A stretch of DNA of 64,000 nt, taken from Treponemataceae bacterium. Lineage in GTDB: Bacteria; Spirochaetota; Spirochaetia; Treponematales; Treponemataceae. Within the stretch, counting starts at the first letter, position 1. Each line of letters starts with the position of its first letter. Shown here in pieces: positions 7,294-20,023 of this stretch. The stretch covers positions 11,395 to 75,394 of the forward strand of contig JAZRJV010000037.1 of the NCBI GenBank assembly GCA_045645985.1, written 5' to 3'. The position numbers and the translations under genes are program-made. The notes under the pieces are model-generated. The model ran no database searches and was not told the DNA's origin. It worked only from the letters and a program-made list of their open reading frames with translations.

Positions 7294-7322
7294 TTCACAT
7301 TCTTTATATTATGCTGTATAAT
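7294..7322 (+). promoter_or_regulatory. candidate sigma70-like promoter of the 7420-20023 operon
   Basis: TTCACA (7294-7299), 17 nt, TATAAT (7317-7322). Confidence 0.4.
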
Positions 7323-7419: not shown

Positions 7420-8367
7420 ATGAGAAACAAGGTTACGATTATCGGTTCAGGTAGCGTAGGTTCAACAATCGCTTATACGATGGCAGTAGAGGGAATTGCC
7501 TCAGAAATCGTAATGGTAGACATCAATGTAAACAAGGCTTTAGGAGAAGCTCTTGATATTAGACAGGGATTATCTTTTTACACATCATGCTCTATCTATG
7601 CAGGAAGCTATGAAGATGCAAAAGATTCTGATATCGTAATTCTTACTTCTGGAGTTGCAAGAAAACCAGGACAATCTCGTCTTGATCTTGCACAAACAAA
7701 TGTAAATATCACAAAATCAATCATTCCAGAAATCACAAAATATGCTCCAAACGCATACTATATCATCGTTTCAAATCCTATTGATATTCTTACTTATCAA
7801 TTCCATAAAACATCAGGTTTGAAAGAAAACCAAATCATCGGTTCAGGAACAGTTTTAGACTCAGCTCGTTTATGCGCAAGAATCGCTGAATATTATAAAA
7901 TTAACCAAAAAAATGTTCACGCTTATGTTTTAGGTGAACACGGAGATTCATCATTCGTTCCATGGTCAATCGCAAATATTTCTAACATCCCAGTTGATGA
8001 TTATCCAAACTGTATTACAGACAAAACAAAAATTCTTCCACCTTTAGTTCACGAAGAAGTTGAACAATATGTTCGCAAATCAGGTGGACGCGTTATCGAA
8101 AGAAAAGGTGCAACTTTCTATGCAATCGCAATGTCAGTTTGTCACATCTGTAAAGCATTAGTAAGCGGAGTTGATTCAGCTTTACCAGTTTCAACATTGA
8201 TGCACGGTGAATACGGAATCGATGATGTTTGTTTGAGTACTCTTTCTATCGTTGGTAATAAAGGTGTAGAAGGAAAACTTGCACTTAAACTTACAGACGA
8301 AGAAGTAGAAAAACTTCAATACAGTGCAAAATGTCTTAAAGACATTATTTCTCAACTTAACTTCTAA
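7420..8367 (+). CDS. LDH/MDH-family 2-hydroxyacid dehydrogenase; LDH-type scaffold with Arg at the Gln102-equivalent position, so probably malate dehydrogenase
   Basis: 315 aa. TIIGSGSVGSTIAY NAD-binding motif. LGEHGDS (L-LDH active-site signature with catalytic His). LDSARL (substrate Arg). Specificity loop TSGVARKPGQSRLDL aligns to LDH GANQKPGETRLDL with Q->R. Sits directly upstream of fumarase. Confidence 0.8.
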   Translation: MRNKVTIIGSGSVGSTIAYTMAVEGIASEIVMVDINVNKALGEALDIRQGLSFYTSCSIYAGSYEDAKDSDIVILTSGVARKPGQSRLDLAQTNVNITKSIIPEITKYAPNAYYIIVSNPIDILTYQFHKTSGLKENQIIGSGTVLDSARLCARIAEYYKINQKNVHAYVLGEHGDSSFVPWSIANISNIPVDDYPNCITDKTKILPPLVHEEVEQYVRKSGGRVIERKGATFYAIAMSVCHICKALVSGVDSALPVSTLMHGEYGIDDVCLSTLSIVGNKGVEGKLALKLTDEEVEKLQYSAKCLKDIISQLNF

Positions 8368-8389
8368 TTAAATTTTTTTGGAGAATATA

Positions 8390-9808
8390 ATGGAATACAG
8401 AATTGAACACGATTCAATGGGCGATGTAAAAGTTCCTGCAAACAAATACTGGGCTGCTCAAACAGAAAGAAGTCACGAAAACTTTAACATCGGTGTTGGA
8501 ATCGAAACAATGCCACGAGAAATCACAAAGGCTTTTGGTGTGTTAAAAAAAGCCGCTGCAATGGCAAACAACGCACTTAAACCAGAAAAAATGACTGCAG
8601 AAAAATTAGACGCAATTTCTAAAGCATGTGATGAAGTTATTTCTGGTGAACTTTTTGACCACTTCCCTCTTGTTGTATGGCAAACTGGTAGTGGAACTCA
8701 ATCTAACATGAACGCAAACGAAGTTATTGCAAATCGCGGTAACGAAATTGCTTCAGGACTTCCTGCAGGAACTTTCTTTGAAGATGCTTCTAAAGTAACA
8801 AAACTTCTTCATCCAAATGATGATATCAATATGAGCCAATCTTCTAACGATACTTTCCCTACAGCAATGCATATTGCAGCAGTTACAATCTTAGAAGACA
8901 AACTTATTCCTGCTGTTGAACTTTTAATCAATACTTTTGCTCGTTTAGAAAAAGAAAACGAAGGAATCGTAAAATCAGGAAGAACTCACTTACAAGATGC
9001 AACTCCTATCACTTTCAGTCAAGAAATCTCAGGTTGGAGAACTTCTCTTGAAAGAGATATTGAACTTATCAAACTTTCACTTAAACCTTTAAGAGAACTT
9101 GCTCTCGGAGGAACAGCTGTTGGAACAGGTCTTAACGCACCAAAAGGTTTTGATGTAAAAGTTGCAGAAGCTGTTTCAAAATTAACTGGAAAAGAATTTG
9201 TTACAGCTGGAAACAAATTCCACGCTTTAACAAGTAAAGATGAATTAGTATTTGCTCATGGTGCATTAAAAGCTCTTGCTGCAGATATGATGAAAATTGC
9301 AAATGATGTTCGCTGGCTTGCTTCAGGTCCTCGTGTTGGTCTTGGAGAAATTAAAATTCCTGAAAATGAACCAGGTTCTTCAATTATGCCAGGAAAAGTA
9401 AACCCAACTCAATGTGAAGCTGTAACTATGGTTGCTGTTCAAGTTATGGGAAATGATGTAGCTGTTGGAATGGCTGCAAGTCAAGGTAACTTCGAACTTA
9501 ACGTATTTATGCCAGTTTGTATTTACAACTTCTTACAATCAGCTCGTTTATTGGCAGAATCAATTGTTTCTTTCAATAACAACTGTGCTGTTGGAATTAC
9601 TGCAGATAAAGAAAAAATGCACAACAATCTTCATAACTCATTGATGCTTGTAACTGCATTAAATCCATACATTGGATACGAAAATGCTGCAAAAACTGCT
9701 AAAAAAGCTTACAAAGAAAATATTTCTCTAAAAGAAGCTTGTGTTGCTCTTGGATTCTTAACTTCAGAAAAATTTGATGAAGTTTTCCATCCTGAACAAA
9801 TGGTATAA
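8390..9808 (+). CDS. fumC: class II fumarate hydratase
   Basis: Track start 8378 is TTG. ATG at 8390 follows GGAGA. GSSIMPGKVNPTQCEA fumarate-lyase signature. About 470 aa, typical of FumC. Confidence 0.95.
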   Translation: MEYRIEHDSMGDVKVPANKYWAAQTERSHENFNIGVGIETMPREITKAFGVLKKAAAMANNALKPEKMTAEKLDAISKACDEVISGELFDHFPLVVWQTGSGTQSNMNANEVIANRGNEIASGLPAGTFFEDASKVTKLLHPNDDINMSQSSNDTFPTAMHIAAVTILEDKLIPAVELLINTFARLEKENEGIVKSGRTHLQDATPITFSQEISGWRTSLERDIELIKLSLKPLRELALGGTAVGTGLNAPKGFDVKVAEAVSKLTGKEFVTAGNKFHALTSKDELVFAHGALKALAADMMKIANDVRWLASGPRVGLGEIKIPENEPGSSIMPGKVNPTQCEAVTMVAVQVMGNDVAVGMAASQGNFELNVFMPVCIYNFLQSARLLAESIVSFNNNCAVGITADKEKMHNNLHNSLMLVTALNPYIGYENAAKTAKKAYKENISLKEACVALGFLTSEKFDEVFHPEQMV

Positions 9809-9826
9809 ATTTTTACGAGGGTCTTT

Positions 9827-10618
9827 ATGAATTATAGTTATTATCCAGGTTGTACATTGCGTACAAAAGCAAAAGACTTGGATTTTTATGCAAAAAAAAG
9901 TCTTGAAGCCTTAGGTTCTTCACTTGTTGAAGTTCCAGATTGGCAATGTTGTGGAGGTGTTTACTCTACAGCAAAAGACGAAGTTGCAAATAAACTTTCT
10001 GCAGTAAGAGCATTAGTTGCAGCACGAGATGCTGGGCAAGATTTAGTTACAGTATGTTCTGCTTGTCATAATGTATTAAAGCAAGTAAACAACGACATGA
10101 AAAATGATGAATACATCAAAAGTCATGCAAACGCTTATATGCAGTTAGAAACTCCTTACGAAGGAGAAACAAATGTTATTCACTTCCTTGAACTTTTAAG
10201 AGACAAAATCGGATTTGATGAAATTGCAAAAAAAGTAGTTAATCCAATTGGTAAAAAAATCGGTGCTTACTACGGATGTCTTTTACTTCGTCCTGGAAAA
10301 GTTATGGAAATGGATAATCCAGAAAATCCAAAAATTCTTGAAGATTTTATCAAAGCTATTGGTGGTGAACCAGTTATCTACGCTAGAAGAAATGAATGCT
10401 GTGGTGGTTATATCACTATGGAAGATAAAAATATCGCTAACAAAAAAAGCGGTTTAATTTTGGAAAATGCAAAAGAACAAGGTGCAGAACTTTTAGTTAC
10501 AGCTTGTCCTCTTTGTTTATACAATCTCAAGAAAAACACTGATGGCCATGAACTTCCTGTAGTTTATTTTACAGAACTTTTAGCTCAAGCTCTCGGCGTA
10601 AAAAAAGGAGATGAGTAA
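9827..10618 (+). CDS. hdrB: heterodisulfide reductase subunit B-like protein (two CCG domains)
   Basis: 263 aa. First CCG domain is C9-X31-C41C42-X34-C77-X2-C80 (YYPGC...WQCCGG...VCSACH). Second copy is YYGCLLL...NECCGGY...ACPLCLYN. Confidence 0.85.
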   Translation: MNYSYYPGCTLRTKAKDLDFYAKKSLEALGSSLVEVPDWQCCGGVYSTAKDEVANKLSAVRALVAARDAGQDLVTVCSACHNVLKQVNNDMKNDEYIKSHANAYMQLETPYEGETNVIHFLELLRDKIGFDEIAKKVVNPIGKKIGAYYGCLLLRPGKVMEMDNPENPKILEDFIKAIGGEPVIYARRNECCGGYITMEDKNIANKKSGLILENAKEQGAELLVTACPLCLYNLKKNTDGHELPVVYFTELLAQALGVKKGDE

Positions 10619-10620
10619 TT

Positions 10621-11007
10621 ATGGAAGCAAAAATCAGTAAGGAACAAATCATTCAGATTAGTGGTGTAAATCCTAGAAAATGTATGAGATGCGGAAAATG
10701 TTCTGCTTCTTGTCCATCCTATGATGAAATGGAATATCACCCACATCAATTTGTTTACATGGTAGAAAATGGAGATATTGAAAGTTTGGCAAAATCACCT
10801 TCACTTTTCAAATGTCTTTCATGTTTTGCTTGTATTGAACGATGTCCTAGAAATGTTGAACCTGCAAAACTTGTAGAAGCTGTTAGAACTGCTGTTGTAA
10901 GACAACAGGGAAACAACCACTTAAAAGCAGAGCAGATTCCAGAAATGTTGGATGAAGATTTGCCTCAACAGGCTATCGTAAGTGCTTTTAGAAAGTATAA
11001 GAAATAG
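10621..11007 (+). CDS. hdrC: heterodisulfide reductase subunit C-like 2x[4Fe-4S] protein
   Basis: 128 aa. CMRCGKCSASCP and CLSCFACIERCP motifs. Only 2-nt gap after hdrB. Confidence 0.85.
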   Translation: MEAKISKEQIIQISGVNPRKCMRCGKCSASCPSYDEMEYHPHQFVYMVENGDIESLAKSPSLFKCLSCFACIERCPRNVEPAKLVEAVRTAVVRQQGNNHLKAEQIPEMLDEDLPQQAIVSAFRKYKK

Positions 11008-11016
11008 GGATTAGAT

Positions 11017-13017
11017 ATGCAAAGAATCGGTGTTTTTGTGTGCCATTGTGGTACAAATATTGCTGCAACAGTTGATGTAAAAGCTGTTGCCGAAGCTCTC
11101 AGTCACGAACCTGGTGTTGTAGTTTCTAAAGAATATCAGTATATGTGTTCTGAAGCAGGACAAAATCTTATTAAAGATGCTATCAAAGAAAATAAATTAA
11201 CTGGAGTTGTTGTGTGTTCTTGTTCACCTCGTATGCACGAAGCAACTTTCAGAAAAACAGCTGCAGAAGCAGGACTTAACTCTTACATGGTAGAAATTGC
11301 CAACATCCGTGAACAATGTTCTTGGATTCACAAAGAAGTTCCTGTAGCAACTGAAAAAGCAATCGCACTTGGAAAAGCTGCTGTTGCAAAAGTTCACTTA
11401 AACGCTCCGTTAACTCCAGGTGAAACTCCTGTTACAAAAAGAGCATTGGTTATCGGTGGTGGTATTGCAGGTATTCAAACTGCATTGGATATTGCAGATG
11501 CAGGTTTCCCAGTTGATATCGTAGAAAAAGAACCAACTATCGGTGGAAAGATGACTCAAATTGATAAAACTTTCCCTACTTTAGACTGCGCCGCTTGTAT
11601 TCTTACACCAAAAATGGTTGACTGTGCTCAAAATGATAAAATCAGAATTTTATCTTATAGCGAAGTTGCAGAAGTAAAAGGCTTTGTTGGAAATTTCTCA
11701 GTAAAAATCAAACGAAAGGCTCGTTTTGTTGACGAAACAAAATGTACAGGTTGTGGAGTTTGTACAGAAAAATGTCCTCAGAAAAAAGTTCCTAATGAAT
11801 TTAACTTAGGAATGAATAATAGAACTGCAATTTACATTCCTTTTGCACAAGCTGTTCCAAAGGTTGCAACAATCGACCCTAATTCTTGTATGATGTTAAA
11901 AACAGGAAAATGTGGTGTTTGTTCAAAAGTTTGTGGAGCAGGTGCTATCGATTACAAACAACAAGATACTTATCTTGAAGAAAAATATGGTGCAATCGTT
12001 GTAGCAACAGGATTTAATCCTATCAATGTTGAAAAATATGACGAATTTGCATACACACAAAGCAAAGATGTTGTAACTTCACTTGAATTTGAACGCTTGA
12101 TGAATGCAGCAGGTCCTACAAACGGAACATTGCTTCGTCCATCTGACGGAAAACATCCTCATACTTTGGTTTTTGTACAATGTGTTGGAAGCCGCGAAGA
12201 CGGAAATGGTTGCAAAGGCGGAAAAGAATATTGTTCAAAAATCTGTTGTATGTATACAGCAAAACACGCAATGCTTTGTCGTGAAAAATATCCAGATACT
12301 GATGTTTATGTATTCTACATTGATGTTCGTACTCCTGGTAAAAACTTTGACGAATTCTATCGCCGTGCAGTTGAACAATACGGAGTTCACTATGTAAAAG
12401 GTATGGTAGGAAAAGTTGTACCTAGAGCAGACGGAAAACTTGAAGTTTACGGTTCAGACTTAATCGATAACAAACAAATCAAAATTGATGCTGATATGGT
12501 TGTTTTAGCAGCTGCTATCGAACCAGATAAAACAGCTCGTCCACTTGCTACAATGCTTACAGCAAGTATGGATACAAACGACTTCTTTACAGAAGCTCAC
12601 CCAAAACTTCGTCCAGTAGAAAGTCCTACAGCAGGTGTTTTCTTGTCAGGAACTTGTCAAGGACCAAAAGATATTCCAGAAACAGTTGCTCAAGCAGGTG
12701 CTGCTGCTGGAAAAGTTATTGGACTTTTAGTAAAAGATTCTCTCAAAGGAAACCCATGTGTTGCACAATCTGATCCTATGATGTGTAACGGATGTCAAGC
12801 TTGTGAAAAAGTTTGTCCTTACGGAGCTATCACTTATTCAGATACAGACTTTAGCCGAAGAAAAGACGGTTCTATGATTCGTCATGTGGCAAATGTAAAT
12901 CCAGCTGTTTGTCAAGGTTGTGGAGCTTGTACAGTTGCTTGTCCTTCTGGAGCTATGGATCTTAACGGATTCTCTACAAAACAAATTATGGCGGAGGTTG
13001 ATGCAATATGTCAGTAA
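11017..13017 (+). CDS. hdrA: heterodisulfide reductase subunit A-like FAD/FeS protein
   Basis: 666 aa. N-terminal VFVCHCGTNIA. FAD motif ALVIGGGIAGIQTALDIADAG. Ferredoxin-type motifs CTGCGVCTEKCP, CGVCSKVCGAGA, CNGCQACEKVCP, CQGCGACTVACP. Confidence 0.9.
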   Translation: MQRIGVFVCHCGTNIAATVDVKAVAEALSHEPGVVVSKEYQYMCSEAGQNLIKDAIKENKLTGVVVCSCSPRMHEATFRKTAAEAGLNSYMVEIANIREQCSWIHKEVPVATEKAIALGKAAVAKVHLNAPLTPGETPVTKRALVIGGGIAGIQTALDIADAGFPVDIVEKEPTIGGKMTQIDKTFPTLDCAACILTPKMVDCAQNDKIRILSYSEVAEVKGFVGNFSVKIKRKARFVDETKCTGCGVCTEKCPQKKVPNEFNLGMNNRTAIYIPFAQAVPKVATIDPNSCMMLKTGKCGVCSKVCGAGAIDYKQQDTYLEEKYGAIVVATGFNPINVEKYDEFAYTQSKDVVTSLEFERLMNAAGPTNGTLLRPSDGKHPHTLVFVQCVGSREDGNGCKGGKEYCSKICCMYTAKHAMLCREKYPDTDVYVFYIDVRTPGKNFDEFYRRAVEQYGVHYVKGMVGKVVPRADGKLEVYGSDLIDNKQIKIDADMVVLAAAIEPDKTARPLATMLTASMDTNDFFTEAHPKLRPVESPTAGVFLSGTCQGPKDIPETVAQAGAAAGKVIGLLVKDSLKGNPCVAQSDPMMCNGCQACEKVCPYGAITYSDTDFSRRKDGSMIRHVANVNPAVCQGCGACTVACPSGAMDLNGFSTKQIMAEVDAICQ

Positions 13018-13445
13018 ATACAGAATTTAAACCAAAAATCGTAGCATTTTGTTGTAACTGGTGTTCTTATGCAGGTGCTGACCTTGCAGGAACAAACCGC
13101 TTGAACTACCCAGCTGATGTAAAAATCATCAGAGTTCCATGTTCTTGCCGTGTAAATCCTATGTTCATTTTACGAGCATTCCAAAGAGGTGCTGACGGTG
13201 TAATTATGTGTGGATGTCACCCAGGAGACTGTCACTACACAAGTGGAAATTACTTTGCTCGTCGAAGAATGACTTTGCTTTTCTCAACACTTAGTTTTAT
13301 GGGAATTGAAAAAGGTAGAACAAGAGTAGAATGGGTTTCTGCCGCAGAAGGTGCTAAATTTGCAAAAACAATGAATGAATTTGTTGAAACAATCACTTCC
13401 CTTGGTCCAAATAAAAGATTGGAGGACTTAAGATGCAAGAATTAA
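13008..13445 (+). CDS. mvhD: MvhD/FlxD-type hydrogenase iron-sulfur (delta) subunit
   Basis: 145 aa. IVAFCCNWCSYAGADLAG...VPCSCRVNP...IMCGCHPGDCHY. Overlaps the hdrA stop by 10 nt. Confidence 0.85.
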   Translation: MSVNTEFKPKIVAFCCNWCSYAGADLAGTNRLNYPADVKIIRVPCSCRVNPMFILRAFQRGADGVIMCGCHPGDCHYTSGNYFARRRMTLLFSTLSFMGIEKGRTRVEWVSAAEGAKFAKTMNEFVETITSLGPNKRLEDLRCKN

Positions 13446-14344: not shown

Positions 14345-15384
14345 TGGTAAAACTTCCTTTATCAAAATTAAATGATTTATTTGCCCTTATCAACGGAAAT
14401 CAAGAATTATATCTTCCAGTTGATACAGACAAAGGCGAAGCAGAATATAAAAAATGGCAAGAAGGATATTCTCTAAGTTCTGCATTAAACACAAATCGTA
14501 GTGCAAAAGACTTTTTCTTTCCACAAACAGAAAACATCGTTGAATTTAAGATGGAAGGAAAAAATATCGATGTTATCGACACTCGTTCAGAAACAAAAGA
14601 TTTTGTTGTGTTTGGTGTAAAAGCTTGTGATGCAAAGAGTTTTGAAATTCTTGATAGAGTTTTCCTTGTTGACCCAGTTGATACATTCTACAAAAATCGA
14701 AGAGAACACGGAACTATCGTTACATTAAGTTGTAACACAATGGCTCCAACTTGTTTCTGTTCACTTTTTGGAATTGATGTTGCAAATCCAGCAGGTGATG
14801 TTGCTTCTTGGATGGATGACGAAACTATCTGGTTTGAAGCAAACACAGAAAAAGGTAAAAACTTTTTAGCTTCAATTTCTTCATTAACAGAAAACACAAA
14901 CGATGCAGATGTTGACGCAGTTGAAGAAATCAAAGATGCAACAACAGAATTGATGAATTCACAAGCTCTTGCTAAACAAGATATGGCAAAATTCAAAGGT
15001 GAAAATCTTTTGGAATTGTTCAATTCTCCAGAATGGGAAAAACTTTCAGAAACTTGTTTAGGTTGTGGAACTTGTACATTTGTTTGTCCAACTTGTCAAT
15101 GTTACGATATTCGAGATTTCAATACAGGAAAAGGCGTTAAGCGTTTTAGATGTTGGGATAGTTGTATGTATTCTGACTTTACAAAAATGGCGGCTGAAAA
15201 TCCACGCAAATCTCAACTTGAAAGATTTAGACAAAGATTTATGCACAAACTCGTTTACTATCCTACAAAAAATGAAGGAATCTACGGATGTGTAGGTTGT
15301 GGACGCTGTTTGAACAAATGTCCAATTTCAATGAACATTGTTAAAGTTATTAAAAAGCTTTCAAATACAAAAGGAGATAACTAA
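14344..15384 (+). CDS. FeS protein, AsrA / sulfhydrogenase beta (HydB) / FlxB-like
   Basis: 346 aa. CLGCGTCTFVCPTCQCYDIRDF and CVGCGRCLNKCP. TAATG overlap with the upstream gene. Confidence 0.7.
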   Translation: MVKLPLSKLNDLFALINGNQELYLPVDTDKGEAEYKKWQEGYSLSSALNTNRSAKDFFFPQTENIVEFKMEGKNIDVIDTRSETKDFVVFGVKACDAKSFEILDRVFLVDPVDTFYKNRREHGTIVTLSCNTMAPTCFCSLFGIDVANPAGDVASWMDDETIWFEANTEKGKNFLASISSLTENTNDADVDAVEEIKDATTELMNSQALAKQDMAKFKGENLLELFNSPEWEKLSETCLGCGTCTFVCPTCQCYDIRDFNTGKGVKRFRCWDSCMYSDFTKMAAENPRKSQLERFRQRFMHKLVYYPTKNEGIYGCVGCGRCLNKCPISMNIVKVIKKLSNTKGDN

Positions 15385-16211
15385 TGGAAAATGAAGCTTT
15401 GATTCCTTATGTAGGAGTTGTAACCGATATCCGACAGGAAACTCCTGATGTTAAAACATTTAGAGTTGTAGGAAAAGACGGAAAAAAACTTTTTGAACAC
15501 AAACCAGGTCAATGTGCAATGCTTTCTGTTCCTGGTGTTTCAGAAGCAATGATTTCTATCACTTCTTCACCTACAAACACAGAATTTATGGAATTTAGCG
15601 TAAAAAAATGTGGTTGTTTAACAGAATGGTTACACTCAATGGAAGTTGGCCAAAATATCACAGTTCGCGGACCTTACGGAAACGGATTCCCAGTAGAAAC
15701 AGCTTTCAAAGGCAAAAACTTGCTTTTTATCGCTGGTGGTATCGGTCTTGCACCACTTCGCTCAGTAATTAATTATGTTCGTGATAAACGAGAAAACTAC
15801 GGAACAGTTCAAATCGTTTACGGTGCTCGTTCAAAGGCAGACCTTGTTGCTTACAAAGAAATTATTGATGAATGGACAAATGATTCAGGAATCGAAGTTT
15901 GTCTTACAATCGATAATCCTCAGGATGACTGGGACGGACATGTTGGATTCATTCCTAACTATGTAAAAGAATTAAATCCTGATACAAGCAAAACTGTAAT
16001 TATGTGTGGACCACCAATTATGATTAAATTCACATTGGCAGGACTTAAAGAATTAGGTTTTGTTGATACACAGGTTTTCACAACTATGGAAATGAGAATG
16101 AAATGTGGAATCGGAAAATGTGGTCGCTGTAACATTGGTGATAAATATGTTTGTAAAGACGGTCCGGTTTTCAGTTTTGACCAACTTAGTGAATTACCAC
16201 CAGAATATTAA
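15384..16211 (+). CDS. NAD(P)H-binding flavoprotein with C-terminal [2Fe-2S], AsrB / HydG / PyrK / FlxA-like
   Basis: 275 aa. FNR-type fold: HKPGQCAML, NLLFIAGGIGLAPLRS. C-terminal CGIGKCGRCNIGDKYVCKDGPVF. TAATG overlap with the upstream gene. Confidence 0.8.
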   Translation: MENEALIPYVGVVTDIRQETPDVKTFRVVGKDGKKLFEHKPGQCAMLSVPGVSEAMISITSSPTNTEFMEFSVKKCGCLTEWLHSMEVGQNITVRGPYGNGFPVETAFKGKNLLFIAGGIGLAPLRSVINYVRDKRENYGTVQIVYGARSKADLVAYKEIIDEWTNDSGIEVCLTIDNPQDDWDGHVGFIPNYVKELNPDTSKTVIMCGPPIMIKFTLAGLKELGFVDTQVFTTMEMRMKCGIGKCGRCNIGDKYVCKDGPVFSFDQLSELPPEY

Positions 16212-16234
16212 GATAAGGAAGGATAAAAAACATT

Positions 16235-16909
16235 ATGGAACAAAATTTAGTTGATGTTTTCTTTTTTGGTAAAAAATATAGTGTACCAGAAAATCTTACA
16301 ATCATGACAGCTATGGAATACGCTGGATATAAACTTGTAAGAGGATGTGGTTGTCGTAACGGTTTCTGTGGAGCTTGTGCTACAATTTATCGTATCAAAG
16401 GTGATAACGAACTTAAAGCATGTTTAGCTTGTCAAACAAAAGTTGAAGAAGGAATGTATGTTGCAACTCTTCCATTCTTCCCACTTGAGAAAAAACTTTA
16501 TGACATCAATGCTGTAAAACCTACAGAACAAGTGATGATGCAACTTTATCCAGAAATTTACAGTTGTATCGGTTGTAATGCTTGTACAAAAGCTTGTACT
16601 CAAGAACTCAATGTTATGCAGTATATCGCTTATGCACAACGCGGTGAATATGAAAAATGTGCAGAAGAATCATTTGACTGTGTAATGTGTGGAGTTTGTT
16701 CTTCAAGATGTCCAGCAGGAATTTCTCATCCACAGGTTGCAGAACTTGCTCGTCGTATCAACGGAAAATATTTACAACCACAAACACAACACCTTATCGA
16801 TAGAGTTAACGAAATCAACGAAGGTAAATGTGAAGAACTTATTCAATCAATTATGAATAAGCCATTAGACCAAATTAAAGAACTTTACAATACTAGAGAT
16901 TTTGAATAG
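16235..16909 (+). CDS. succinate dehydrogenase/fumarate reductase iron-sulfur subunit-like protein
   Basis: 224 aa. 2Fe-2S-type CGCRNGFCGACATIY...C, then CIGCNACTKAC and CVMCGVCSSRCP. Confidence 0.8.
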   Translation: MEQNLVDVFFFGKKYSVPENLTIMTAMEYAGYKLVRGCGCRNGFCGACATIYRIKGDNELKACLACQTKVEEGMYVATLPFFPLEKKLYDINAVKPTEQVMMQLYPEIYSCIGCNACTKACTQELNVMQYIAYAQRGEYEKCAEESFDCVMCGVCSSRCPAGISHPQVAELARRINGKYLQPQTQHLIDRVNEINEGKCEELIQSIMNKPLDQIKELYNTRDFE

Positions 16910-16919
16910 GAGATGTGGA

Positions 16920-18545
16920 ATGTATAATAACGAATTAGACGAATTAGCAAAAATCGTTGCAGAAAAAAGAGAAGCTAACATCAAATTTGAAGCAACTCGC
17001 TTAACAGCAGAAGAAAAGGATACAATCCTCAAAGAAAATCATCCTGATAACATTCCAAGTCAGTTTGAACAAATTAAAATCGGTCCAAACAAAGGACAAA
17101 AAGCTCCTATCGAACTTACAAAAGTTTTACAAGGAAAACCTCGTCTTTCTTCAAAAGAAGTAAACTTAGACAATGTTGACTATGAAGCTGATGTATTGGT
17201 AATCGGTGGTGGTGGTTCTGGAACAAGTGCCGCTATCATGGCAAGTGAAGCTGGCGCAAAAGTTCTTCTTGTTACAAAACTTCGCGTAGGGGACGCAAAC
17301 ACAATGATGGCAGAAGGAGGAATCCAAGCTGCTGATAAACCAAACGACTCTCCAGCACAACACTATCTTGACGCTTTTGGTGGTGGACACTTTGACGGTG
17401 TTCCAGAATTGGTTTACACATTGGTAAACAAAGCTCCAGAAGCTATCAAATGGTTGAACGACTTAGGTGTTGAATTTGACAAAGAAGCTGACGGAACAAT
17501 GGTTACAACTCACGGTGGTGGAACAAGCCGCAAACGAATGCACGCATGTAAAGACTATTCTGGTGCAGAAATTATGCGTACTCTCCGTGACGAAGCATTT
17601 AACCGCGCAAAAGATATTGAAGTTGTCGATTTTACAGCTGCAATTGAAATTATCAAAGATGAAAAAGGAAATGCTGCAGGTGCTGTTCTTATGAACATGG
17701 AAACTGGTGAAATCAGAATTGCAAAAGCAAAAGTTGTTGTAATTGCAACTGGTGGAGCTGGAAGAATGCACTATCAAAACTTCCCTACTTCAAACCACTA
17801 CGGAGCAACAGCTGACGGTCTTGTTTTGGCTTACAGAGCAGGTGCTGAACTTTTATATCAAGATTCTTTACAATATCACCCAACTGGTGCTGCATATCCA
17901 GCACAGATTTTAGGAGCCTTGGTTACAGAAAAAGTTCGTTCACTTGGTGCAAAACTTATCAATGCAAAAGGTGAAGTTTACATTCACCCACTTGAAACTC
18001 GTGATGTAAACGCTTCTGGAATTATCAAACAATGTAAAATCGGAAACGGAATTAAAACAGCAATTTCTGAAGGTGTTTGGCTTGATACTCCAATGATTGA
18101 AGCAATCCACGGAGAAGGAACAATCGAAAAGAGTATTCCTGCAATGCTTCGTATGTTCGGAAAATATGGAATCGATATTAGAAAGGAACCTATCCTTGTT
18201 TACCCTACACTTCACTATCAAAATGGTGGTGTAAAAATCAACAAAGATTGTCAAACTTCAGTTCCTAACTTGTTAGTTGCAGGTGAAGCTGCTGGTGGTA
18301 TCCACGGAACAAACAGACTTATGGGTAACTCACTTCTTGATGTTGTTGTATTCGGTCGTCAGGCTGGTATGGCTGCAGGAAGAATGTTCAAAGATATTGC
18401 AATGCCAGAAAAACTCACACTTAAACATGTTGATGATTTTGAAGCTGAAAGAGCAAATGCTGGAATTACAGACGAAACTCCATCTCCAAAACTTTTACCA
18501 AGTTATACACATGGTAATCCAAAACTAGAAGGATTGGTAAAATAA
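16920..18545 (+). CDS. fumarate reductase/succinate dehydrogenase flavoprotein-like subunit (soluble type, no covalent-FAD His)
   Basis: Track start 16902 is TTG. ATG at 16920 follows AGGAGA. DVLVIGGGGSGTSAAIMASEAG FAD motif after a ~95-aa N-terminal extension. QYHPTG, ETRD, LHYQNGGV and GEAAGGIHGTNRLMGNSL align to E. coli FrdA H232, R287, H355 and R390 segments. RSHTVAAEGG is replaced by DANTMMAEGG. Confidence 0.85.
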   Translation: MYNNELDELAKIVAEKREANIKFEATRLTAEEKDTILKENHPDNIPSQFEQIKIGPNKGQKAPIELTKVLQGKPRLSSKEVNLDNVDYEADVLVIGGGGSGTSAAIMASEAGAKVLLVTKLRVGDANTMMAEGGIQAADKPNDSPAQHYLDAFGGGHFDGVPELVYTLVNKAPEAIKWLNDLGVEFDKEADGTMVTTHGGGTSRKRMHACKDYSGAEIMRTLRDEAFNRAKDIEVVDFTAAIEIIKDEKGNAAGAVLMNMETGEIRIAKAKVVVIATGGAGRMHYQNFPTSNHYGATADGLVLAYRAGAELLYQDSLQYHPTGAAYPAQILGALVTEKVRSLGAKLINAKGEVYIHPLETRDVNASGIIKQCKIGNGIKTAISEGVWLDTPMIEAIHGEGTIEKSIPAMLRMFGKYGIDIRKEPILVYPTLHYQNGGVKINKDCQTSVPNLLVAGEAAGGIHGTNRLMGNSLLDVVVFGRQAGMAAGRMFKDIAMPEKLTLKHVDDFEAERANAGITDETPSPKLLPSYTHGNPKLEGLVK

Positions 18546-18546
18546 A

Positions 18547-19755
18547 ATGGTACTCGGTGTTTTATCTATCAAAACAATTTCATTTTTAGTATTCTGTGTT
18601 TTTGCAATCGCAGGGCTTGGATATCTTTTAGGAAGAATCACAATTAAAGGTGTTTCTCTTGGAACTGCAGGTGTATTTATCGTTGCTCTTTTATTTGGAG
18701 CCTTGTTGTACAATCCACTTGCAGAACAATTAAAAGTTGCTGGAACAAGTTATGTTACAAATGCGCTAAAGATTATCGAAAATCTTGGGTTGATTTTGTT
18801 CGTAACTTCAGTTGGATTTATTGCAGGACCTAACTTCTTTGGTGATTTCAAGCGTAACTTCAAATCATATATTGTATTAGGTTTGATTATCATCATTGTT
18901 GGTGGAATTTCATGTTGGGCTTGTACAATGTTCGACATCAAAGTTTACGGTCGCGATGCAAAAGAAGCAGCTGCAATGTTAGTAGGATTACTTTCAGGTT
19001 CACTTACTTCAACTCCAGCTTTCTCTGCTGCAAAAGCAACTGTTACAACAGAAGCATTAGAAACAATCGTTGCAGTAGGACACGGAATTGCATATTTGTT
19101 CGGTGTTGTTGGTGTTGTTCTTTTTGTTCAATTAGTTCCAAAGTTTGCAAAAGCAAATATGGAAGAAGAAAGAGCAAAACTTTCAGAAAACAATCCAGAA
19201 GTTGCATCAAAATTAACAGGTAAAGAATTAGAACTTGATCCATTTGGATTTTGTGCATTTTCTTTAGTTGCAGTAATTGGAATCTTAATCGGTTCAATTA
19301 AAATTGGTAACTTCTCATTAACAACAACTGGTGGATGTTTGTTAACATCATTGATTTTTGGTCACTTTGCAAAAATCGGAAATATTTCAATCACACCATC
19401 AACTCCAACTCTCAAAAACTTTAGAGAACTTGGACTTATGCTTTTCTTAATCGGAGCTGGTGTTGCAGGTGGTGCAGAATTTGTAAAATACTTTGAATGG
19501 GTTTACTTCATTTACGGTATTATTATGACAATGTTACCAATGATTGTTGGATACATTTTTGCAAGATATGTTTTGAAATTAAATTTGTTAAACAACTTAG
19601 GTTCAATTTGTGGTGGTATGACTTCTACTCCAGCTTTAGGAACATTGATTTCTACAGCAGGTACAGAAAAAGTTGCAGGTGCTTATGCTTCAACTTACCC
19701 AATCGCATTGATTTCAGTTGTAATCGTATCACAAATTTTAATCTTGATGTTCTAA
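18547..19755 (+). CDS. AAE-family (YidE/YbjL/AspT-like duplicated permease) transporter, short form without RCK_C domains; candidate C4-dicarboxylate/succinate transporter
   Basis: 402 aa. Two hydrophobic halves of ~5 TM each joined by a short charged loop (KANMEEERAKLSENNPEVASKLTGKE). GLLSGSLTSTPA and ICGGMTSTPALG repeat motifs, one per half. Starts 1 nt after the flavoprotein stop. Confidence 0.65.
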   Translation: MVLGVLSIKTISFLVFCVFAIAGLGYLLGRITIKGVSLGTAGVFIVALLFGALLYNPLAEQLKVAGTSYVTNALKIIENLGLILFVTSVGFIAGPNFFGDFKRNFKSYIVLGLIIIIVGGISCWACTMFDIKVYGRDAKEAAAMLVGLLSGSLTSTPAFSAAKATVTTEALETIVAVGHGIAYLFGVVGVVLFVQLVPKFAKANMEEERAKLSENNPEVASKLTGKELELDPFGFCAFSLVAVIGILIGSIKIGNFSLTTTGGCLLTSLIFGHFAKIGNISITPSTPTLKNFRELGLMLFLIGAGVAGGAEFVKYFEWVYFIYGIIMTMLPMIVGYIFARYVLKLNLLNNLGSICGGMTSTPALGTLISTAGTEKVAGAYASTYPIALISVVIVSQILILMF

Positions 19756-19774
19756 TTTATAGGAGAATGATTTT

Positions 19775-20023
19775 ATGAAAATTGAAGTATGTATGGGAAG
19801 TTCATGCCACGCAAAAGGTGCTAGCAGAGTTTTAGACCTTTTAAGAGAAGCTATTGCAACAAACAAACTTGAAGATAAAATTGAACTTGCTGGTTCTATT
19901 TGTCTTGGAGCTTGTAAAGAAAATGGTGCTAACTTAAGAGTTGATGGCGAACTTGTTTCTGGAATTACAAAAGAAAACTTCTATGACTTTTTTAACACAA
20001 AAGTTATTGATGCTTTAAAATAA
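19775..20023 (+). CDS. small thioredoxin-like [2Fe-2S] ferredoxin (NuoE-like fold)
   Basis: 82 aa with exactly four Cys (CMGSSCH...CLGAC). AGGAG RBS. Last gene before the terminator. Confidence 0.6.
   Translation: MKIEVCMGSSCHAKGASRVLDLLREAIATNKLEDKIELAGSICLGACKENGANLRVDGELVSGITKENFYDFFNTKVIDALK

What the first reader, a model, noticed from the sequence alone, without database searches (positions are those of the whole stretch)
7420..20023. 13-gene operon joining a Flx-Hdr (HdrABC + MvhD + NAD(P)H module) scaffold to an anchor-less FrdAB fumarate reductase, with MDH, fumarase and a dicarboxylate permease: candidate quinone-independent, ferredoxin-coupled NADH:fumarate reductase
**Seen in the sequence**
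- Thirteen co-directional genes have gaps of 0-25 nt or overlaps (TAATG junctions at 14344 and 15384; 10- and 13-nt overlaps at 13008 and 13433).
- They are bracketed by a terminator at 7201-7244 and a strong bidirectional terminator at 20052-20097.
- Gene order: MDH-type dehydrogenase, FumC, HdrB (both CCG domains intact), HdrC, HdrA, MvhD, two AsrA/HydB-type FeS proteins, an AsrB/HydG-type NAD(P)H-FAD-2Fe2S protein, FrdB-like, FrdA-like, AAE-family permease, small 2Fe-2S ferredoxin.
- No FrdC/FrdD-type membrane anchor ORF is present.

**Established knowledge**
- HdrA carries the bifurcating FAD in MvhADG-HdrABC.
- FlxABCD-HdrABC of sulfate reducers and clostridia is proposed to oxidise NADH while reducing ferredoxin and a high-potential disulfide.
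- CCG-domain modules are wired to fumarate reductase flavoproteins in methanogen thiol:fumarate reductase (TfrAB) and in type E succinate:quinone reductases (SdhE).
- Fumarate/succinate (about +30 mV) is a thermodynamically suitable high-potential acceptor for bifurcation from NADH (-320 mV) to ferredoxin.

**Inference**
- Electrons from NADH would enter through the FlxA-like subunit and bifurcate at HdrA. One branch would reduce ferredoxin; the other would pass via HdrC/HdrB and FrdB to FrdA and fumarate.
- This would give a soluble energy-conserving route from malate to fumarate to succinate, followed by export.
- I do not know of a biochemically characterised complex with this composition.
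Basis: partly seen in the sequence, partly recalled or inferred. Interest (0 to 1): 0.85.

Follow-up and report, generated by a model that had tools for sequence, protein, structure and literature searches.

The report
Soluble Hdr-Flx-linked fumarate reductase operon
A gut spirochete carries a 13-gene operon that joins an NADH-oxidising, probably electron-bifurcating Flx-HdrABC module to a soluble, anchor-less fumarate reductase, with malate dehydrogenase, fumarase and a dicarboxylate permease; it is real and widespread in gut anaerobes, but the idea was already published and has never been tested biochemically.

Summary
Thirteen co-directional, tightly packed genes (7420-20023) lie between two terminators. 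Only the permease has transmembrane segments.

The reductase is atypical. It has no covalent-FAD histidine, no C-terminal Sdh/Frd domain and no 3Fe-4S cluster, and it carries an ~88-residue N-terminal extension. All fumarate catalytic residues and all Hdr/FeS cysteine ligands are invariant across 56-81 species.

The nine-gene core hdrBCA-mvhD-flxCBA-FeS-flavoprotein is complete and co-linear in 53/53 species-representative loci with enough flank. These are mostly gut and rumen Clostridia, plus Treponema. In Lachnospiraceae a class I fumarase replaces FumC, which ties the enzyme to fumarate.

The mechanism is NADH to Flx to HdrA, bifurcating to ferredoxin and, via HdrC/HdrB and the FeS subunit, to fumarate. 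It is plausible but untested.

It is not new. The same operon is published as the Pseudoclostridium thermosuccinogenes 'succinate operon' (2019/2020), and a related Hdr-Flx/tfrAB cluster is described in rTCA Gammaproteobacteria (2019/2024). I found no biochemical characterisation. Verdict: new member of a known, still only predicted, kind.

The parts
7200..7244 (+). Intrinsic terminator of the preceding gene; upstream boundary of the operon
   Evidence: 14-bp stem, 7-nt loop, T-tract; sequence read
7294..7322 (+). Best sigma-70-like promoter match of the region (TTCACA-17-TATAAT, 11/12), ~100 nt upstream of g1
   Evidence: This is a consensus match only; promoter-like sites overall are not enriched over shuffles.
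7420..8367 (+). g1: LDH-like malate dehydrogenase (315 aa)
   Evidence: Ldh_1_N and Ldh_1_C. Passes both L-LDH and MDH NCBIfam subfamily cut-offs. Arg81 in 'GVARKPGQSR' sits at the Gln102/Arg102 specificity position and is invariant in 46/46 orthologues.
8390..9808 (+). g2: class II fumarate hydratase FumC (ORF opens at TTG 8378; likely start is ATG 8390)
   Evidence: TIGR00979 fumC_II, 711 bits against a cut-off of 665. GGAG RBS plus ATG at 8390.
9827..10618 (+). g3: HdrB-like subunit with two CCG domains (non-cubane 4Fe-4S sites)
   Evidence: PF02754 x2. 132 bits to HdrB of 8rvv/5odc over the full length. All 10 Cys invariant in 56/56 species. Second-best NCBIfam hit is SdhE of MFR.
10621..11007 (+). 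g4: HdrC-like 2x[4Fe-4S] subunit
   Evidence: Fer4_17/Fer4_8. Best NCBIfam hits are HdrC models. All 8 Cys invariant in 56/56.
11017..13017 (+). g5: full-length HdrA (FAD plus FeS clusters; candidate bifurcation site)
   Evidence: 680 bits, end-to-end alignment to 5ODC_A, with all CxxCxxCxxxC(P) motifs aligned. NCBIfam HdrA2 789 bits, below that model's cut-off.
13008..13445 (+). g6: MvhD/FlxD-type 2Fe-2S connector
   Evidence: PF02662 FlpD 185.8 bits. 8 Cys invariant in 63/63.
13433..14344 (+). g7: di-cluster FeS protein (FlxC-like by position)
   Evidence: Generic Fer4_8/9/10 hits only. Conserved in position in all loci, median identity 53%.
14344..15384 (+). g8: HydB/AsrA-type FeS protein (FlxB-like)
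   Evidence: Fer4_22 110.9 bits. ShyB/HydB/AsrA models 140-177 bits, below their cut-offs.
15384..16211 (+). g9: NAD(P)H-binding FAD/2Fe-2S protein (FlxA-like; AsrB/HydG/PyrK type). Electron entry point.
   Evidence: NAD_binding_1, FAD_binding_6 and DHODB_Fe-S_bind. AsrB/HydG models 197-229 bits.
16235..16909 (+). g10: SdhB/FrdB/TfrB-like iron-sulfur subunit with 2Fe-2S plus two 4Fe-4S clusters (no 3Fe-4S)
   Evidence: Fer2_4 plus Fer4 dicluster. Weak hits to the TfrB and dhsB N-terminal regions. C40-x4-C45-x2-C48...C66, C111xxCxxCxxxC121 and C149xxCxxCxxxC159P are all invariant in 78/78. Naturally fused to the flavoprotein in P0123.
16920..18545 (+). g11: fumarate-reductase-type flavoprotein (541 aa) with non-covalent FAD, an N-terminal ~88-aa extension and no Succ_DH_flav_C domain
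   Evidence: FAD_binding_2 230.8 bits only. Best NCBIfam model is TfrA at 332 bits (cut-off 718), ahead of sdhA/frdA 266 and nadB 262. Alignment to E. coli FrdA places Asn127 at the His44 position. N127, H320, T336, E337, R340, R361, H432 and R466 are invariant in 81/81. Foldseek top hit is 1kf6_A.
18547..19755 (+). g12: AAE-family (Asp-Al_Ex x2) permease without TrkA_C domains; candidate succinate exporter or dicarboxylate exchanger
   Evidence: PF06826 201.7 bits, two copies. YidE/YbjL duplication domain. 12 TM-like segments. Present downstream in 40/56 loci.
19775..20023 (+). g13: 82-aa thioredoxin-like 2Fe-2S ferredoxin (C6-x4-C11-x31-C43-x3-C47); accessory
   Evidence: PF01257 29.9 bits. 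Found in only 7/80 species loci. P. thermosuccinogenes has a 250-bp gene in the same position.
20052..20097 (.). Bidirectional terminator-like element (A-run, 10-bp inverted repeat, T-run) between the operon and the convergent thioesterase gene
   Evidence: Read directly. The scanner did not call it (long loop, AT-rich stem).

Best explanation
The operon encodes the cytoplasmic reductive branch from oxaloacetate to succinate, plus a dicarboxylate permease. Fumarate reduction is carried out by one soluble multi-subunit complex, not by a membrane quinol:fumarate reductase.

Proposed electron path:
1. NAD(P)H is oxidised at the FlxA-like subunit (g9).
2. Electrons pass through the FlxB/FlxC-like FeS proteins (g8, g7) and the MvhD-type 2Fe-2S protein (g6) to the FAD of HdrA (g5).
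3. The electron pair is bifurcated at HdrA. One electron leaves through HdrA's ferredoxin-like domains to ferredoxin. The other runs downhill through HdrC (g4) and the non-cubane clusters of HdrB (g3) into the 2Fe-2S/4Fe-4S chain of g10.
4. From g10 it reaches the non-covalent FAD of g11, which reduces fumarate.

Net reaction: 2 NADH + fumarate + Fd(ox) -> 2 NAD+ + succinate + Fd(red). From standard potentials (+33, -320 and about -450 mV) this is roughly -43 kJ/mol. The reduced ferredoxin can then drive Rnf or H2 formation.

Shown here: gene content, cofactor-ligand and catalytic-residue conservation, absence of an anchor, strict co-linearity across species, and the link to fumarase.

Inferred: that the nine proteins form one complex, that electrons pass from HdrB/HdrC to g10 without a thiol intermediate, and that ferredoxin is co-reduced.
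For: - Complete Flx-Hdr set: full-length HdrA (680 bits to the bifurcating HdrA of 5ODC), HdrB with both CCG sites, plus HdrC, MvhD and an NAD-binding FlxA-like protein.
- g11 keeps every fumarate/succinate catalytic residue, invariant in 81/81. QFR/SQR flavoproteins are its top structural matches.
- Features that argue against quinone coupling and succinate oxidation: no covalent-FAD His (Asn127 invariant), no 3Fe-4S motif in g10, and no TM segment in g1-g11 or g13.
- The nine-gene core is co-linear in 53/53 full-length loci and 27/27 truncated loci from 80 species.
- All HdrB, HdrC, MvhD and g10 Cys ligands are invariant.
- Fumarate link: FumC is present in 47/53 loci. In the Lachnospiraceae locus I opened (L058; four more show the same pattern by tblastn), a class I fumarase (Fumerase 390 bits plus Fumerase_C 196 bits) sits right after the flavoprotein instead. 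MDH, with its specificity Arg invariant, is present in 45/53.
- g10 and g11 are physical partners: natural fusion P0123.
- They form a portable module wired through FeS chains to different donors: Hdr-Flx, OGOR-Hdr, or a NuoF-like protein.
- TfrB of methanogens fuses an SdhB-like domain to CCG domains (hits of g10, g4 and g3 to successive parts of the TfrB model). CCG clusters are therefore already known to feed a fumarate-reductase FeS chain.
- In P. thermosuccinogenes the equivalent operon is highly expressed and co-regulated, and the same mechanism was proposed by its authors.
Against: - There is no biochemical evidence anywhere for this complex (9 literature searches).
- To my knowledge, FlxABCD-HdrABC itself has only genetic and physiological support for bifurcation.
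- HdrB's thiol/disulfide site is strictly conserved. That could mean an unidentified thiol cofactor is still involved, not direct electron transfer.
- Marine relatives pair the same FeS/flavoprotein module with a simple NuoF-like protein. NADH:fumarate reduction by this module therefore does not intrinsically need bifurcation.
- Complex formation could not be modelled: no multimer tool was available, and the monomer model is only pLDDT 66.
- The window contains no Rnf, hydrogenase or quinone genes, so it gives no information on how ferredoxin is re-oxidised or whether quinones exist in this organism.
Confidence: 0.6

Rival explanations
1. Same complex, but not bifurcating. Flx-Hdr acts as an elaborate electron wire, and the enzyme is a plain soluble NAD(P)H:fumarate reductase with no ferredoxin reduction.
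For: Marine gammaproteobacterial relatives pair the homologous FeS/flavoprotein module with a single NuoF-like NADH module and no Hdr. Simple NADH-to-fumarate transfer through this module is therefore feasible.
Against: HdrA is full length, including both ferredoxin-like domains, with all cluster motifs aligned to the bifurcating archaeal enzyme. Seven extra FeS/flavin subunits are kept co-linear in 53/53 loci with invariant ligands. That is hard to justify for a reaction a three-gene unit can do. The ~350 mV drop from NADH to fumarate would be wasted in strict fermenters.
Confidence: 0.15
2. Two enzymes in one operon, coupled by a diffusible thiol. Flx-HdrABC reduces an unknown disulfide while reducing ferredoxin, and the g10/g11 reductase (or HdrB plus g10/g11 acting as a split TfrAB) re-oxidises the thiols with fumarate.
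For: The CCG cysteines of HdrB are invariant. The closest characterised reductase by profile score is thiol:fumarate reductase TfrA (332 bits). Parts of TfrB match g10, g4 and g3. The rTCA literature keeps open a route via a DsrC-like protein.
Against: There is only one CCG protein per operon, so there is no second site that could oxidise thiols while HdrB reduces the disulfide. g10/g11 have no CCG domain. No DsrC-like or thiol-carrier gene is conserved in the cluster. Bacteria lack CoM/CoB (established knowledge).
Confidence: 0.12
3. The complex is peripherally membrane-bound and exchanges electrons with menaquinone through the HdrB/SdhE-like subunit, as in type E succinate:quinone reductases or Campylobacter MFR.
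For: g3's second-best NCBIfam hit is the MFR anchor SdhE (127 bits, against 146 for HdrB).
Against: Both scores are far below the models' cut-offs (500 and 345). No amphipathic or TM segment was detected (max KD19 0.91). g3 aligns end to end with soluble HdrB structures. It always travels with HdrC and HdrA. Most host lineages are Clostridia, which generally lack quinones (established knowledge, not tested here).
Confidence: 0.05
4. The flavoprotein is not a fumarate reductase. It would be an L-aspartate oxidase-like enzyme or another enoate/amino-acid oxidoreductase, and the neighbouring MDH and FumC would be coincidental.
For: The NadB models score almost as well as the Sdh/Frd models (262 against 266 bits). 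NadB shares the same catalytic residues.
Against: All NadB models are far below cut-off (262 against 453). NadB ranks 48th structurally, behind QFR/SQR. The protein always has an SdhB-like FeS partner, sometimes fused to it. Fumarase is linked in two non-orthologous forms. MDH and a dicarboxylate permease co-occur. No nadA or nadC is nearby.
Confidence: 0.04

Closest known systems
'Succinate operon' of Pseudoclostridium (Hungateiclostridium) thermosuccinogenes (Koendjbiharie & van Kranenburg 2019 preprint; Koendjbiharie et al. 2020, PMC7282089)
   Same: Same gene order and near-identical gene sizes: fumarate hydratase, HdrB (784 bp there, 792 bp here), HdrC, the HdrA-MvhD-FlxCBA block (5348 bp, 5195 bp), FeS subunit (676 bp, 675 bp), flavoprotein (1603 bp, 1626 bp) and a small terminal gene (250 bp, 249 bp). 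The proposed function is also the same: fumarate reduction coupled to ferredoxin reduction through Flx-Hdr.
   Different: The host here is a spirochete (Treponemataceae MAG), not a thermophilic clostridium. This operon also carries an MDH at the 5' end and an AAE permease between the flavoprotein and the small gene. The published case has transcriptomic support only.
Hdr-Flx / 'tfrAB' genes in the rTCA clusters of tubeworm symbionts and Thioflavicoccus mobilis (PMC6315080; PMC11636981)
   Same: A soluble two-subunit fumarate reductase sits next to hdrABC/flx genes, and direct electron shuttling from Hdr-Flx to the reductase has been proposed. A metagenomic locus of this type (L085: korDABC-hdrA-mvhD-hdrC-hdrB-FeS-flavoprotein) has a flavoprotein 53% identical and an FeS subunit 48% identical to the window's, with the same N-terminal extension.
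   Different: The setting is autotrophic CO2 fixation, not fermentation. OGOR genes are interleaved, the gene order differs, and there is no FumC/MDH/AAE set.
FlxABCD-HdrABC of Desulfovibrio vulgaris (Ramos et al. 2015)
   Same: All seven subunit types are present with cofactor motifs intact. NAD(P)H is the presumed donor.
   Different: The proposed high-potential acceptor there is the DsrC disulfide. Here no DsrC-type gene is present, and a fumarate reductase module is attached. Gene order is hdrBCA-flxDCBA.
Thiol:fumarate reductase TfrAB of Methanothermobacter (Heim et al. 1998)
   Same: It is soluble, anchor-less and quinone-independent. TfrA is the best-scoring characterised model for g11 (332 bits). 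TfrB combines an SdhB-like FeS domain with CCG domains, and these correspond to g10 and g3 here.
   Different: TfrA and TfrB scores are far below their equivalog cut-offs. g11 lacks the C-terminal domain. The CCG domains are on a separate HdrB that comes with HdrA and HdrC. The donors there are CoM-SH and CoB-SH, which bacteria lack.
Membrane-bound quinol:fumarate reductase / complex II (FrdABCD, SdhABCD)
   Same: Same flavoprotein fold and the same catalytic His/Arg/Thr/Glu residues. The 2Fe-2S motif is SdhB-type.
   Different: No membrane anchor, no covalent FAD, no Succ_DH_flav_C domain and no 3Fe-4S cluster.
Bcd-EtfAB / caffeyl-CoA reductase-Etf (flavin-based bifurcation with a C=C acceptor)
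   Same: Same bioenergetic logic. NADH reduces a high-potential C=C bond (crotonyl-CoA about -10 mV; fumarate +33 mV), and the surplus drives ferredoxin reduction (established knowledge).
   Different: The protein machinery is unrelated: the bifurcating flavin is in Etf there and in HdrA here.

Membership tests
FlxABCD-HdrABC NADH dehydrogenase/heterodisulfide reductase | Full-length HdrA with a TrxR-like FAD domain, an N-terminal cluster, and inserted and C-terminal ferredoxin domains | tested here: met
   680 bits, residues 3-663 aligned to 5ODC_A 5-648, with all Cys motifs aligned.
FlxABCD-HdrABC NADH dehydrogenase/heterodisulfide reductase | HdrB with two CCG motifs (10 Cys) and HdrC with two CxxCxxCxxxC motifs | tested here: met
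   PF02754 x2. Alignment to HdrB structures. 10/10 and 8/8 Cys invariant in 56/56 species.
FlxABCD-HdrABC NADH dehydrogenase/heterodisulfide reductase | FlxD (MvhD-type 2Fe-2S) and FlxA (NAD(P)H/FAD/2Fe-2S), plus FlxB/FlxC FeS proteins | tested here: met
   FlpD 185.8 bits. g9 has NAD_binding_1, FAD_binding_6 and DHODB_Fe-S_bind. g8 has Fer4_22 (HydB/AsrA-like). g7 is a generic di-cluster protein.
FlxABCD-HdrABC NADH dehydrogenase/heterodisulfide reductase | NADH-dependent co-reduction of ferredoxin and a disulfide (DsrC or heterodisulfide) | not testable with these tools
   This needs enzyme assays. No DsrC-like gene is in the operon or in related loci.
Hdr-Flx-linked soluble fumarate reductase ('succinate operon' type, P. 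thermosuccinogenes) | Co-linear fumarase, hdrB, hdrC, hdrA, mvhD, flxC, flxB, flxA, FeS subunit, flavoprotein | tested here: met
   Gene order and sizes match the published coordinates. The same order is found in 53/53 species loci.
Hdr-Flx-linked soluble fumarate reductase ('succinate operon' type, P. thermosuccinogenes) | Sequence orthology to the P. thermosuccinogenes proteins | not tested
Quinol:fumarate reductase / succinate:quinone reductase (complex II) | Flavoprotein with FAD_binding_2 and the catalytic His/Arg residues | tested here: met
   PF00890 230.8 bits. H320, R361, H432, R466, T336 and E337 are invariant.
Quinol:fumarate reductase / succinate:quinone reductase (complex II) | Covalent 8-alpha-N3-histidyl FAD (E. 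coli FrdA His44) | tested here: not met
   Asn127 aligns with this His and is invariant in 81/81.
Quinol:fumarate reductase / succinate:quinone reductase (complex II) | C-terminal Succ_DH_flav_C domain | tested here: not met
   No PF02910 hit. Alignments to FrdA/SdhA/TfrA models stop at about position 410-420 of 546-600.
Quinol:fumarate reductase / succinate:quinone reductase (complex II) | FeS subunit with 2Fe-2S, 4Fe-4S and a 3Fe-4S cluster next to the quinone site | tested here: not met
   The 2Fe-2S motif is present, but both downstream motifs are complete CxxCxxCxxxC (4Fe-4S type), invariant in 78/78. dhsB model 29.7 bits against a cut-off of 88.
Quinol:fumarate reductase / succinate:quinone reductase (complex II) | Hydrophobic membrane anchor subunit(s) | tested here: not met
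   No TM-like segment in g1-g11 or g13. None elsewhere in the window by Pfam. The rest of the genome was not available.
Thiol:fumarate reductase TfrAB | TfrA equivalog score | tested here: not met
   NF004900 scores 332 bits against a cut-off of 718, matching only model positions 6-410 of 546.
Thiol:fumarate reductase TfrAB | TfrB: SdhB-like FeS domain fused to two CCG domains | tested here: not met
   g10 has no CCG domain. The CCG domains are on the separate g3. TfrB model hits are 27-40 bits against a cut-off of 385.
L-aspartate oxidase (NadB) | NadB equivalog score; stand-alone flavoprotein in a nadA/nadC context | tested here: not met
   TIGR00551 scores 261.9 against a cut-off of 452.75. 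The protein is always paired with an FeS subunit, or fused to it. No nad genes are nearby.
LDH-like malate dehydrogenase | Arg instead of Gln at the substrate-specificity position (Q102R) | tested here: met
   'GVARKPGQSR'. Arg is invariant in 46/46. The MDH subfamily model NF004863 scores 284 against a cut-off of 283, but the L-LDH models also pass.
AAE (aspartate:alanine exchanger) transporter family | Two Asp-Al_Ex membrane repeats | tested here: met
   PF06826 x2, 201.7 bits. TIGR01625 scores 143.7 against a cut-off of 72. The central TrkA_C domains of YidE/AspT are absent (402 aa). Substrate is not testable.

The most novel reading that the evidence does not exclude
This is a genuine HdrA-based electron-bifurcating NADH:fumarate/ferredoxin oxidoreductase, a bifurcating enzyme class that has never been shown biochemically. 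The non-cubane clusters of HdrB would serve as an electron relay into an SdhB-type FeS chain, not as a disulfide-reducing site. It would be the main, so far unrecognised, energy-conserving route of succinate formation in at least 80 species of quinone-poor gut and rumen Clostridia and treponemes. The FeS/flavoprotein pair would be a portable soluble fumarate-reductase cassette that evolution has plugged into Hdr-Flx, OGOR-Hdr and NuoF-type donors.
Probability: 0.5. Interest if true: 0.75.

Novelty: new member of a known kind. Interest (0 to 1): 0.5.

Why it matters
Succinate is a major product of gut and rumen fermentation, a precursor of propionate and a host signalling metabolite. Textbook fumarate reduction needs a membrane quinol:fumarate reductase. 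Many succinate-forming Clostridia and treponemes are not known to have a quinone-based chain.

If this complex bifurcates, the ~350 mV drop from NADH to fumarate is not wasted. It is banked as reduced ferredoxin for Rnf-driven ion pumping or H2 production. That changes the ATP yields, H2 budgets and redox models used for rumen methane mitigation and for engineering succinate producers.

It would also add a C=C acceptor to the short list of HdrA-type bifurcation reactions, and it would explain what HdrB does in bacteria that lack heterodisulfide or DsrC.

First, the cluster is strictly conserved and very widespread: 80 species representatives were kept from more than 600 matches. Second, several cultured hosts exist in which it can be tested: Treponema sp. 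Marseille-Q4130, Yeguia hominis NSJ-40 and P. thermosuccinogenes.

Tried and rejected
- **Exact-sequence look-ups.** The window's flavoprotein and P0001 returned nothing. A 98%-identical sister sequence worked.
- **The 2019 preprint.** It is not held in the library, so its content is known only from how PMC7282089 cites it.
- **P. thermosuccinogenes proteins.** I could not retrieve them. The single genome scan returned only the 80 best loci (at least 67% identity), and that species was not among them. Orthology therefore rests on gene order and size.
- **Structure prediction of g11.** The MSA was shallow because only proteins at 80% identity or more were permitted, and the model was mediocre (pLDDT 66, pTM 0.69). 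It supports the fold class but says nothing reliable about the N-terminal extension. No multimer prediction was possible, so the HdrB/HdrC-g10 contact could not be tested.
- **Rfam scans.** The whole window and the 5' leader gave nothing, so there is no riboswitch or known regulatory RNA.
- **g1 as lactate dehydrogenase.** Considered because the L-LDH models pass their cut-offs. Rejected because the specificity Arg is invariant and the gene is linked to FumC.
- **g11 as L-aspartate oxidase, and a quinone-linked SdhE-type role for g3.** Both considered and rejected; see the rival explanations.
- **Reverse operation (succinate oxidation).** Rejected on thermodynamic grounds and because the FAD is non-covalent.
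- **Window context.** I looked for Rnf, hydrogenase, menaquinone, frdCD and DsrC genes in the other ~45 ORFs and found only housekeeping genes. That is uninformative either way.

Full report
**Observation**

The region 7420-20023 contains 13 co-directional ORFs. Intergenic distances range from -13 to +23 nt. Shine-Dalgarno-like motifs precede nearly every start.

An intrinsic terminator (7200-7234 plus T-tract) closes the upstream gene. The best promoter-like match in the region lies at 7294-7322 (11/12). No convincing + strand terminator lies inside the block. An A-run/inverted-repeat/T-run at 20052-20097 separates the last gene from a convergent thioesterase gene.

Two start codons should be revised. 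FumC starts at ATG 8390, behind GGAG. The flavoprotein starts at ATG 16920.

**What the genes are**

Pfam and NCBIfam give the following.
- **g1:** an LDH/MDH-family dehydrogenase. It passes both the L-LDH and MDH subfamily cut-offs but carries Arg at the Gln102/Arg102 specificity position ('GVARKPGQSR'). That Arg is invariant in 46/46 orthologues, so it is an LDH-like MDH.
- **g2:** class II fumarase (711 bits, above cut-off).
- **g3:** an HdrB-like protein with two CCG domains. It aligns over its full length with structurally solved HdrB.
- **g4:** HdrC-like.
- **g5:** a full-length HdrA. It aligns end to end (680 bits) with the bifurcating HdrA of 5ODC, with every cluster motif in register.
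- **g6:** MvhD/FlxD.
- **g7:** a generic di-cluster protein.
- **g8:** a HydB/AsrA-type Fer4_22 protein.
- **g9:** an AsrB/HydG/PyrK-type NAD(P)H-FAD-2Fe-2S protein.
- **g12:** an AAE-family permease with two Asp-Al_Ex repeats and no TrkA_C domains.
- **g13:** an 82-residue thioredoxin-like 2Fe-2S ferredoxin (Cx4Cx31Cx3C).

A hydropathy scan finds 12 TM-like segments in g12 and none in any other product. The operon therefore encodes no FrdC/D-type anchor.

**The reductase module is atypical**

g11 has only the FAD_binding_2 domain.
- All Sdh/Frd/Tfr/NadB models align only to about position 410-420 of 546-600, so the Succ_DH_flav_C domain is missing.
- About 88 extra residues precede the Rossmann motif.
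- In the alignment with E. coli FrdA, the covalent-FAD histidine (His44) is replaced by Asn127.
- The catalytic residues are all present: H320 in QYHPTG, T336/E337/R340, R361, H432 and R466.
- Across 81 sequences from 80 species, all of these residues and Asn127 are invariant.

The best characterised model is methanogen TfrA (332 bits against a cut-off of 718), ahead of SdhA/FrdA (266) and NadB (262). A moderate AlphaFold model (pLDDT 66) matches QFR/SQR flavoproteins best, with NadB at rank 48.

g10 has an SdhB-type 2Fe-2S motif (C40-x4-C45-x2-C48...C66). It also has two complete CxxCxxCxxxC motifs, so it has no 3Fe-4S cluster. All of these ligands are invariant in 78/78.

A deep search found a natural g10::g11 fusion (P0123, 727 aa), which shows that the two are physical partners. 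Non-covalent FAD, the absence of a 3Fe-4S cluster and the absence of an anchor all point away from quinone coupling and away from succinate oxidation.

**Conservation and distribution**

Near-identical copies (98-100%) occur in Treponemataceae/Spirochaetaceae MAGs, with the whole 13-gene block intact and variable upstream neighbours.

A scan of one genome per species returned more than 600 matches, of which the best 80 were kept (67-75% identity). Three are Treponema, including the isolate Treponema sp. Marseille-Q4130. About 74 are gut or rumen Clostridia: Ruminococcus, Oscillospiraceae, Acutalibacteraceae, Lachnospiraceae, Christensenellaceae and the isolate Yeguia hominis NSJ-40. A few bins carry other labels.

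tblastn with the 13 window proteins gave these results.
- hdrB-hdrC-hdrA-mvhD-flxC-flxB-flxA-FeS-flavoprotein is complete and co-linear in 53/53 loci with at least 9.6 kb of upstream sequence.
- All 27 shorter loci are consistent with the same order.
- FumC is present in 47/53, MDH in 45/53 and the AAE permease in 40/56.
- The small ferredoxin appears in only 7/80.

In the Lachnospiraceae locus I inspected (L058, one of five lacking FumC by tblastn), a two-subunit class I fumarase (Fumerase 390 bits, Fumerase_C 196 bits) sits immediately after the flavoprotein. This non-orthologous displacement is strong contextual evidence that fumarate is the substrate.

All 10 HdrB, 8 HdrC and 8 MvhD cysteines are invariant, so every cofactor site is under purifying selection.

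Identities to clostridial homologues (HdrA up to 83%, MvhD up to 92%) are as high as those to other Treponema copies. This implies lateral transfer between gut Clostridia and spirochetes.

**Modularity**

More distant family members that keep the N-terminal extension show that the FeS/flavoprotein pair is a portable cassette. Four arrangements were seen.
- In a metagenomic contig, the pair follows korDABC-hdrA-mvhD-hdrC-hdrB (L085; flavoprotein 53% identical, FeS subunit 48% identical). This is the rTCA-type arrangement.
- In abundant marine gammaproteobacterial MAGs, the pair is followed only by a NuoF-like NADH/FMN/4Fe-4S protein, with no Hdr (L083/L084).
- In Prochlorococcus sp. MIT 1201 the two genes stand alone.
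- In P0123 the two are fused.

The module evidently receives electrons through FeS chains from interchangeable donors. That favours direct wiring to HdrC/HdrB here over a diffusible thiol.

**Mechanism**

1. NAD(P)H enters at the FlxA-like g9.
2. Electrons reach the HdrA FAD via g8, g7 and g6.
3. Bifurcation at HdrA sends one electron to ferredoxin.
4. The other goes via HdrC/HdrB to g10 and then to the FAD of g11, which reduces fumarate.

From standard potentials (established knowledge), 2 NADH + fumarate + Fd(ox) -> 2 NAD+ + succinate + Fd(red) is about -43 kJ/mol. This is comparable to the Bcd-Etf reaction. MDH and fumarase supply fumarate from oxaloacetate, and the AAE permease probably exports succinate or exchanges dicarboxylates.

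What is shown here: gene content, cofactor and catalytic-residue conservation, absence of an anchor, strict synteny, and the fumarase link.

What is inferred: that the proteins form a single complex, the HdrB-to-g10 electron path, and ferredoxin co-reduction.

There are three main caveats.
- The thiol-reactive CCG site is strictly retained, so a thiol intermediate is not excluded.
- The NuoF-type variant shows that this module can work without bifurcation.
- Flx-Hdr bifurcation itself is unproven in vitro (my knowledge).

**Prior art**

The hypothesis is already published. Koendjbiharie et al. (PMC7282089) describe a 'succinate operon' in Pseudoclostridium thermosuccinogenes. It comprises fumarate hydratase, a seven-gene Flx-Hdr complex, a two-gene fumarate reductase and a small terminal gene. 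[quoted passage not shown]

Gene coordinates in their supplement match the window's gene order and sizes almost base for base. The genes are highly expressed and co-regulated.

Independently, Rubin-Blum et al. (PMC6315080) and a 2024 Nature Microbiology study (PMC11636981) proposed something similar. They suggested that Hdr-Flx shuttles electrons directly to a 'tfrAB' fumarate reductase in gammaproteobacterial rTCA clusters. A 2024 preprint also notes HdrA-Sdh/Frd association in Ruminococcus champanellensis.

Nine full-text searches found no biochemical characterisation of any such complex.

**Context**

The remainder of the window is housekeeping: SecA, HisRS, EF-G, FTHFS, IMPDH, PRPP synthetase and the like. 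No Rnf, hydrogenase, quinone or frdCD genes are present. The window therefore cannot say how ferredoxin is re-oxidised or whether a conventional QFR exists elsewhere in the genome. No Rfam family matches the leader or any other part of the window.

**Verdict**

The finding is real and correctly interpreted. It is a new (spirochete) member of a gene-cluster type whose function has already been hypothesised in print but never demonstrated.

- atypical-feature analysis of the reductase;
- quantitative evidence of strict conservation across at least 80 species;
- the fumarase displacement;
- the modular variants.

Interest is moderate at 0.5. The biology is important and testable in cultured hosts, but it would not surprise a specialist who knows the 2019-2024 literature.

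Noticed in passing
L083 and L084, 9366-12891 (marine Gammaproteobacteria MAG contigs): A three-gene unit: g10-like FeS subunit (212 aa, 30% identical), g11-like flavoprotein (545 aa, ~45% identical, same N-terminal extension) and a NuoF-like protein (Complex1_51K, SLBB, NADH_4Fe-4S). No Hdr/Flx is nearby. It looks like a minimal soluble NADH:fumarate reductase, and the flavoprotein is seen on more than 100 contigs (82 contigs for P0271; the index lists it in 140 blocks).
   Followed up: partly
L085, 811-9771 (Logan SRR24270839 contig): korDABC (OGOR), hdrA, mvhD, hdrC, hdrB, FeS, flavoprotein. This is an rTCA-type arrangement in which the reductase module directly follows hdrB. The flavoprotein is 53% identical to g11.
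   Followed up: partly
P0123 (727 aa, NCBI contig of 7.7 kb): A natural fusion of the g10-type FeS subunit to the N-terminus of the g11-type flavoprotein, joined through the N-terminal extension.
   Followed up: partly
L086, 6001-8357 (Prochlorococcus sp. MIT 1201, CP138947.1): A cyanobacterial isolate carries the flavoprotein (542 aa, 41% identical, with the extension) followed by the FeS subunit. No obvious donor module is adjacent, and the function there is unknown.
   Followed up: no
window 5184-7186: Two ORFs (392 and 276 aa) with no Pfam or NCBIfam hit lie between a radical-SAM gene (2379-4706) and the operon. In sister strain L001 the radical-SAM gene directly abuts the operon, so this looks like a strain-variable two-gene insertion.
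   Followed up: partly
window 9827-18545 compared with loci L003-L082: Identities to clostridial homologues (HdrA up to 83%, MvhD up to 92%, FeS subunit up to 82%) equal or exceed those to other Treponema copies. This indicates lateral transfer of the whole cluster between gut Clostridia and spirochetes.
   Followed up: partly
window 29216-30061: A metallo-beta-lactamase-fold protein that matches the Anti-Pycsar Apyc1 family (PF23023, 114.6 bits against a cut-off of 50). It sits in a chromosomal, non-phage-looking context.
   Followed up: no
window 37690-39537: Two adjacent ORFs (422 and 185 aa) next to secA with no Pfam match at E <= 1e-6.
   Followed up: no
window 56092-58592 (- strand): A radical SAM/SPASM protein (397 aa) lies next to an AMP-binding/AMP-binding_C_2 protein (434 aa). 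This may be a peptide-modification or cofactor-maturation pair.
   Followed up: no
window 693-2318 (- strand): A 541-aa FAD-dependent protein with the FAD-depend_C domain (PF21688, 234.7 bits). It is unrelated to g11 despite having the same length.
   Followed up: no
window 20589-25727 (- strand): Immediately downstream and convergent to the operon are a U32 peptidase (774 aa), a PLP-dependent decarboxylase and a class III aminotransferase. This neighbourhood is conserved in sister strains.
   Followed up: no
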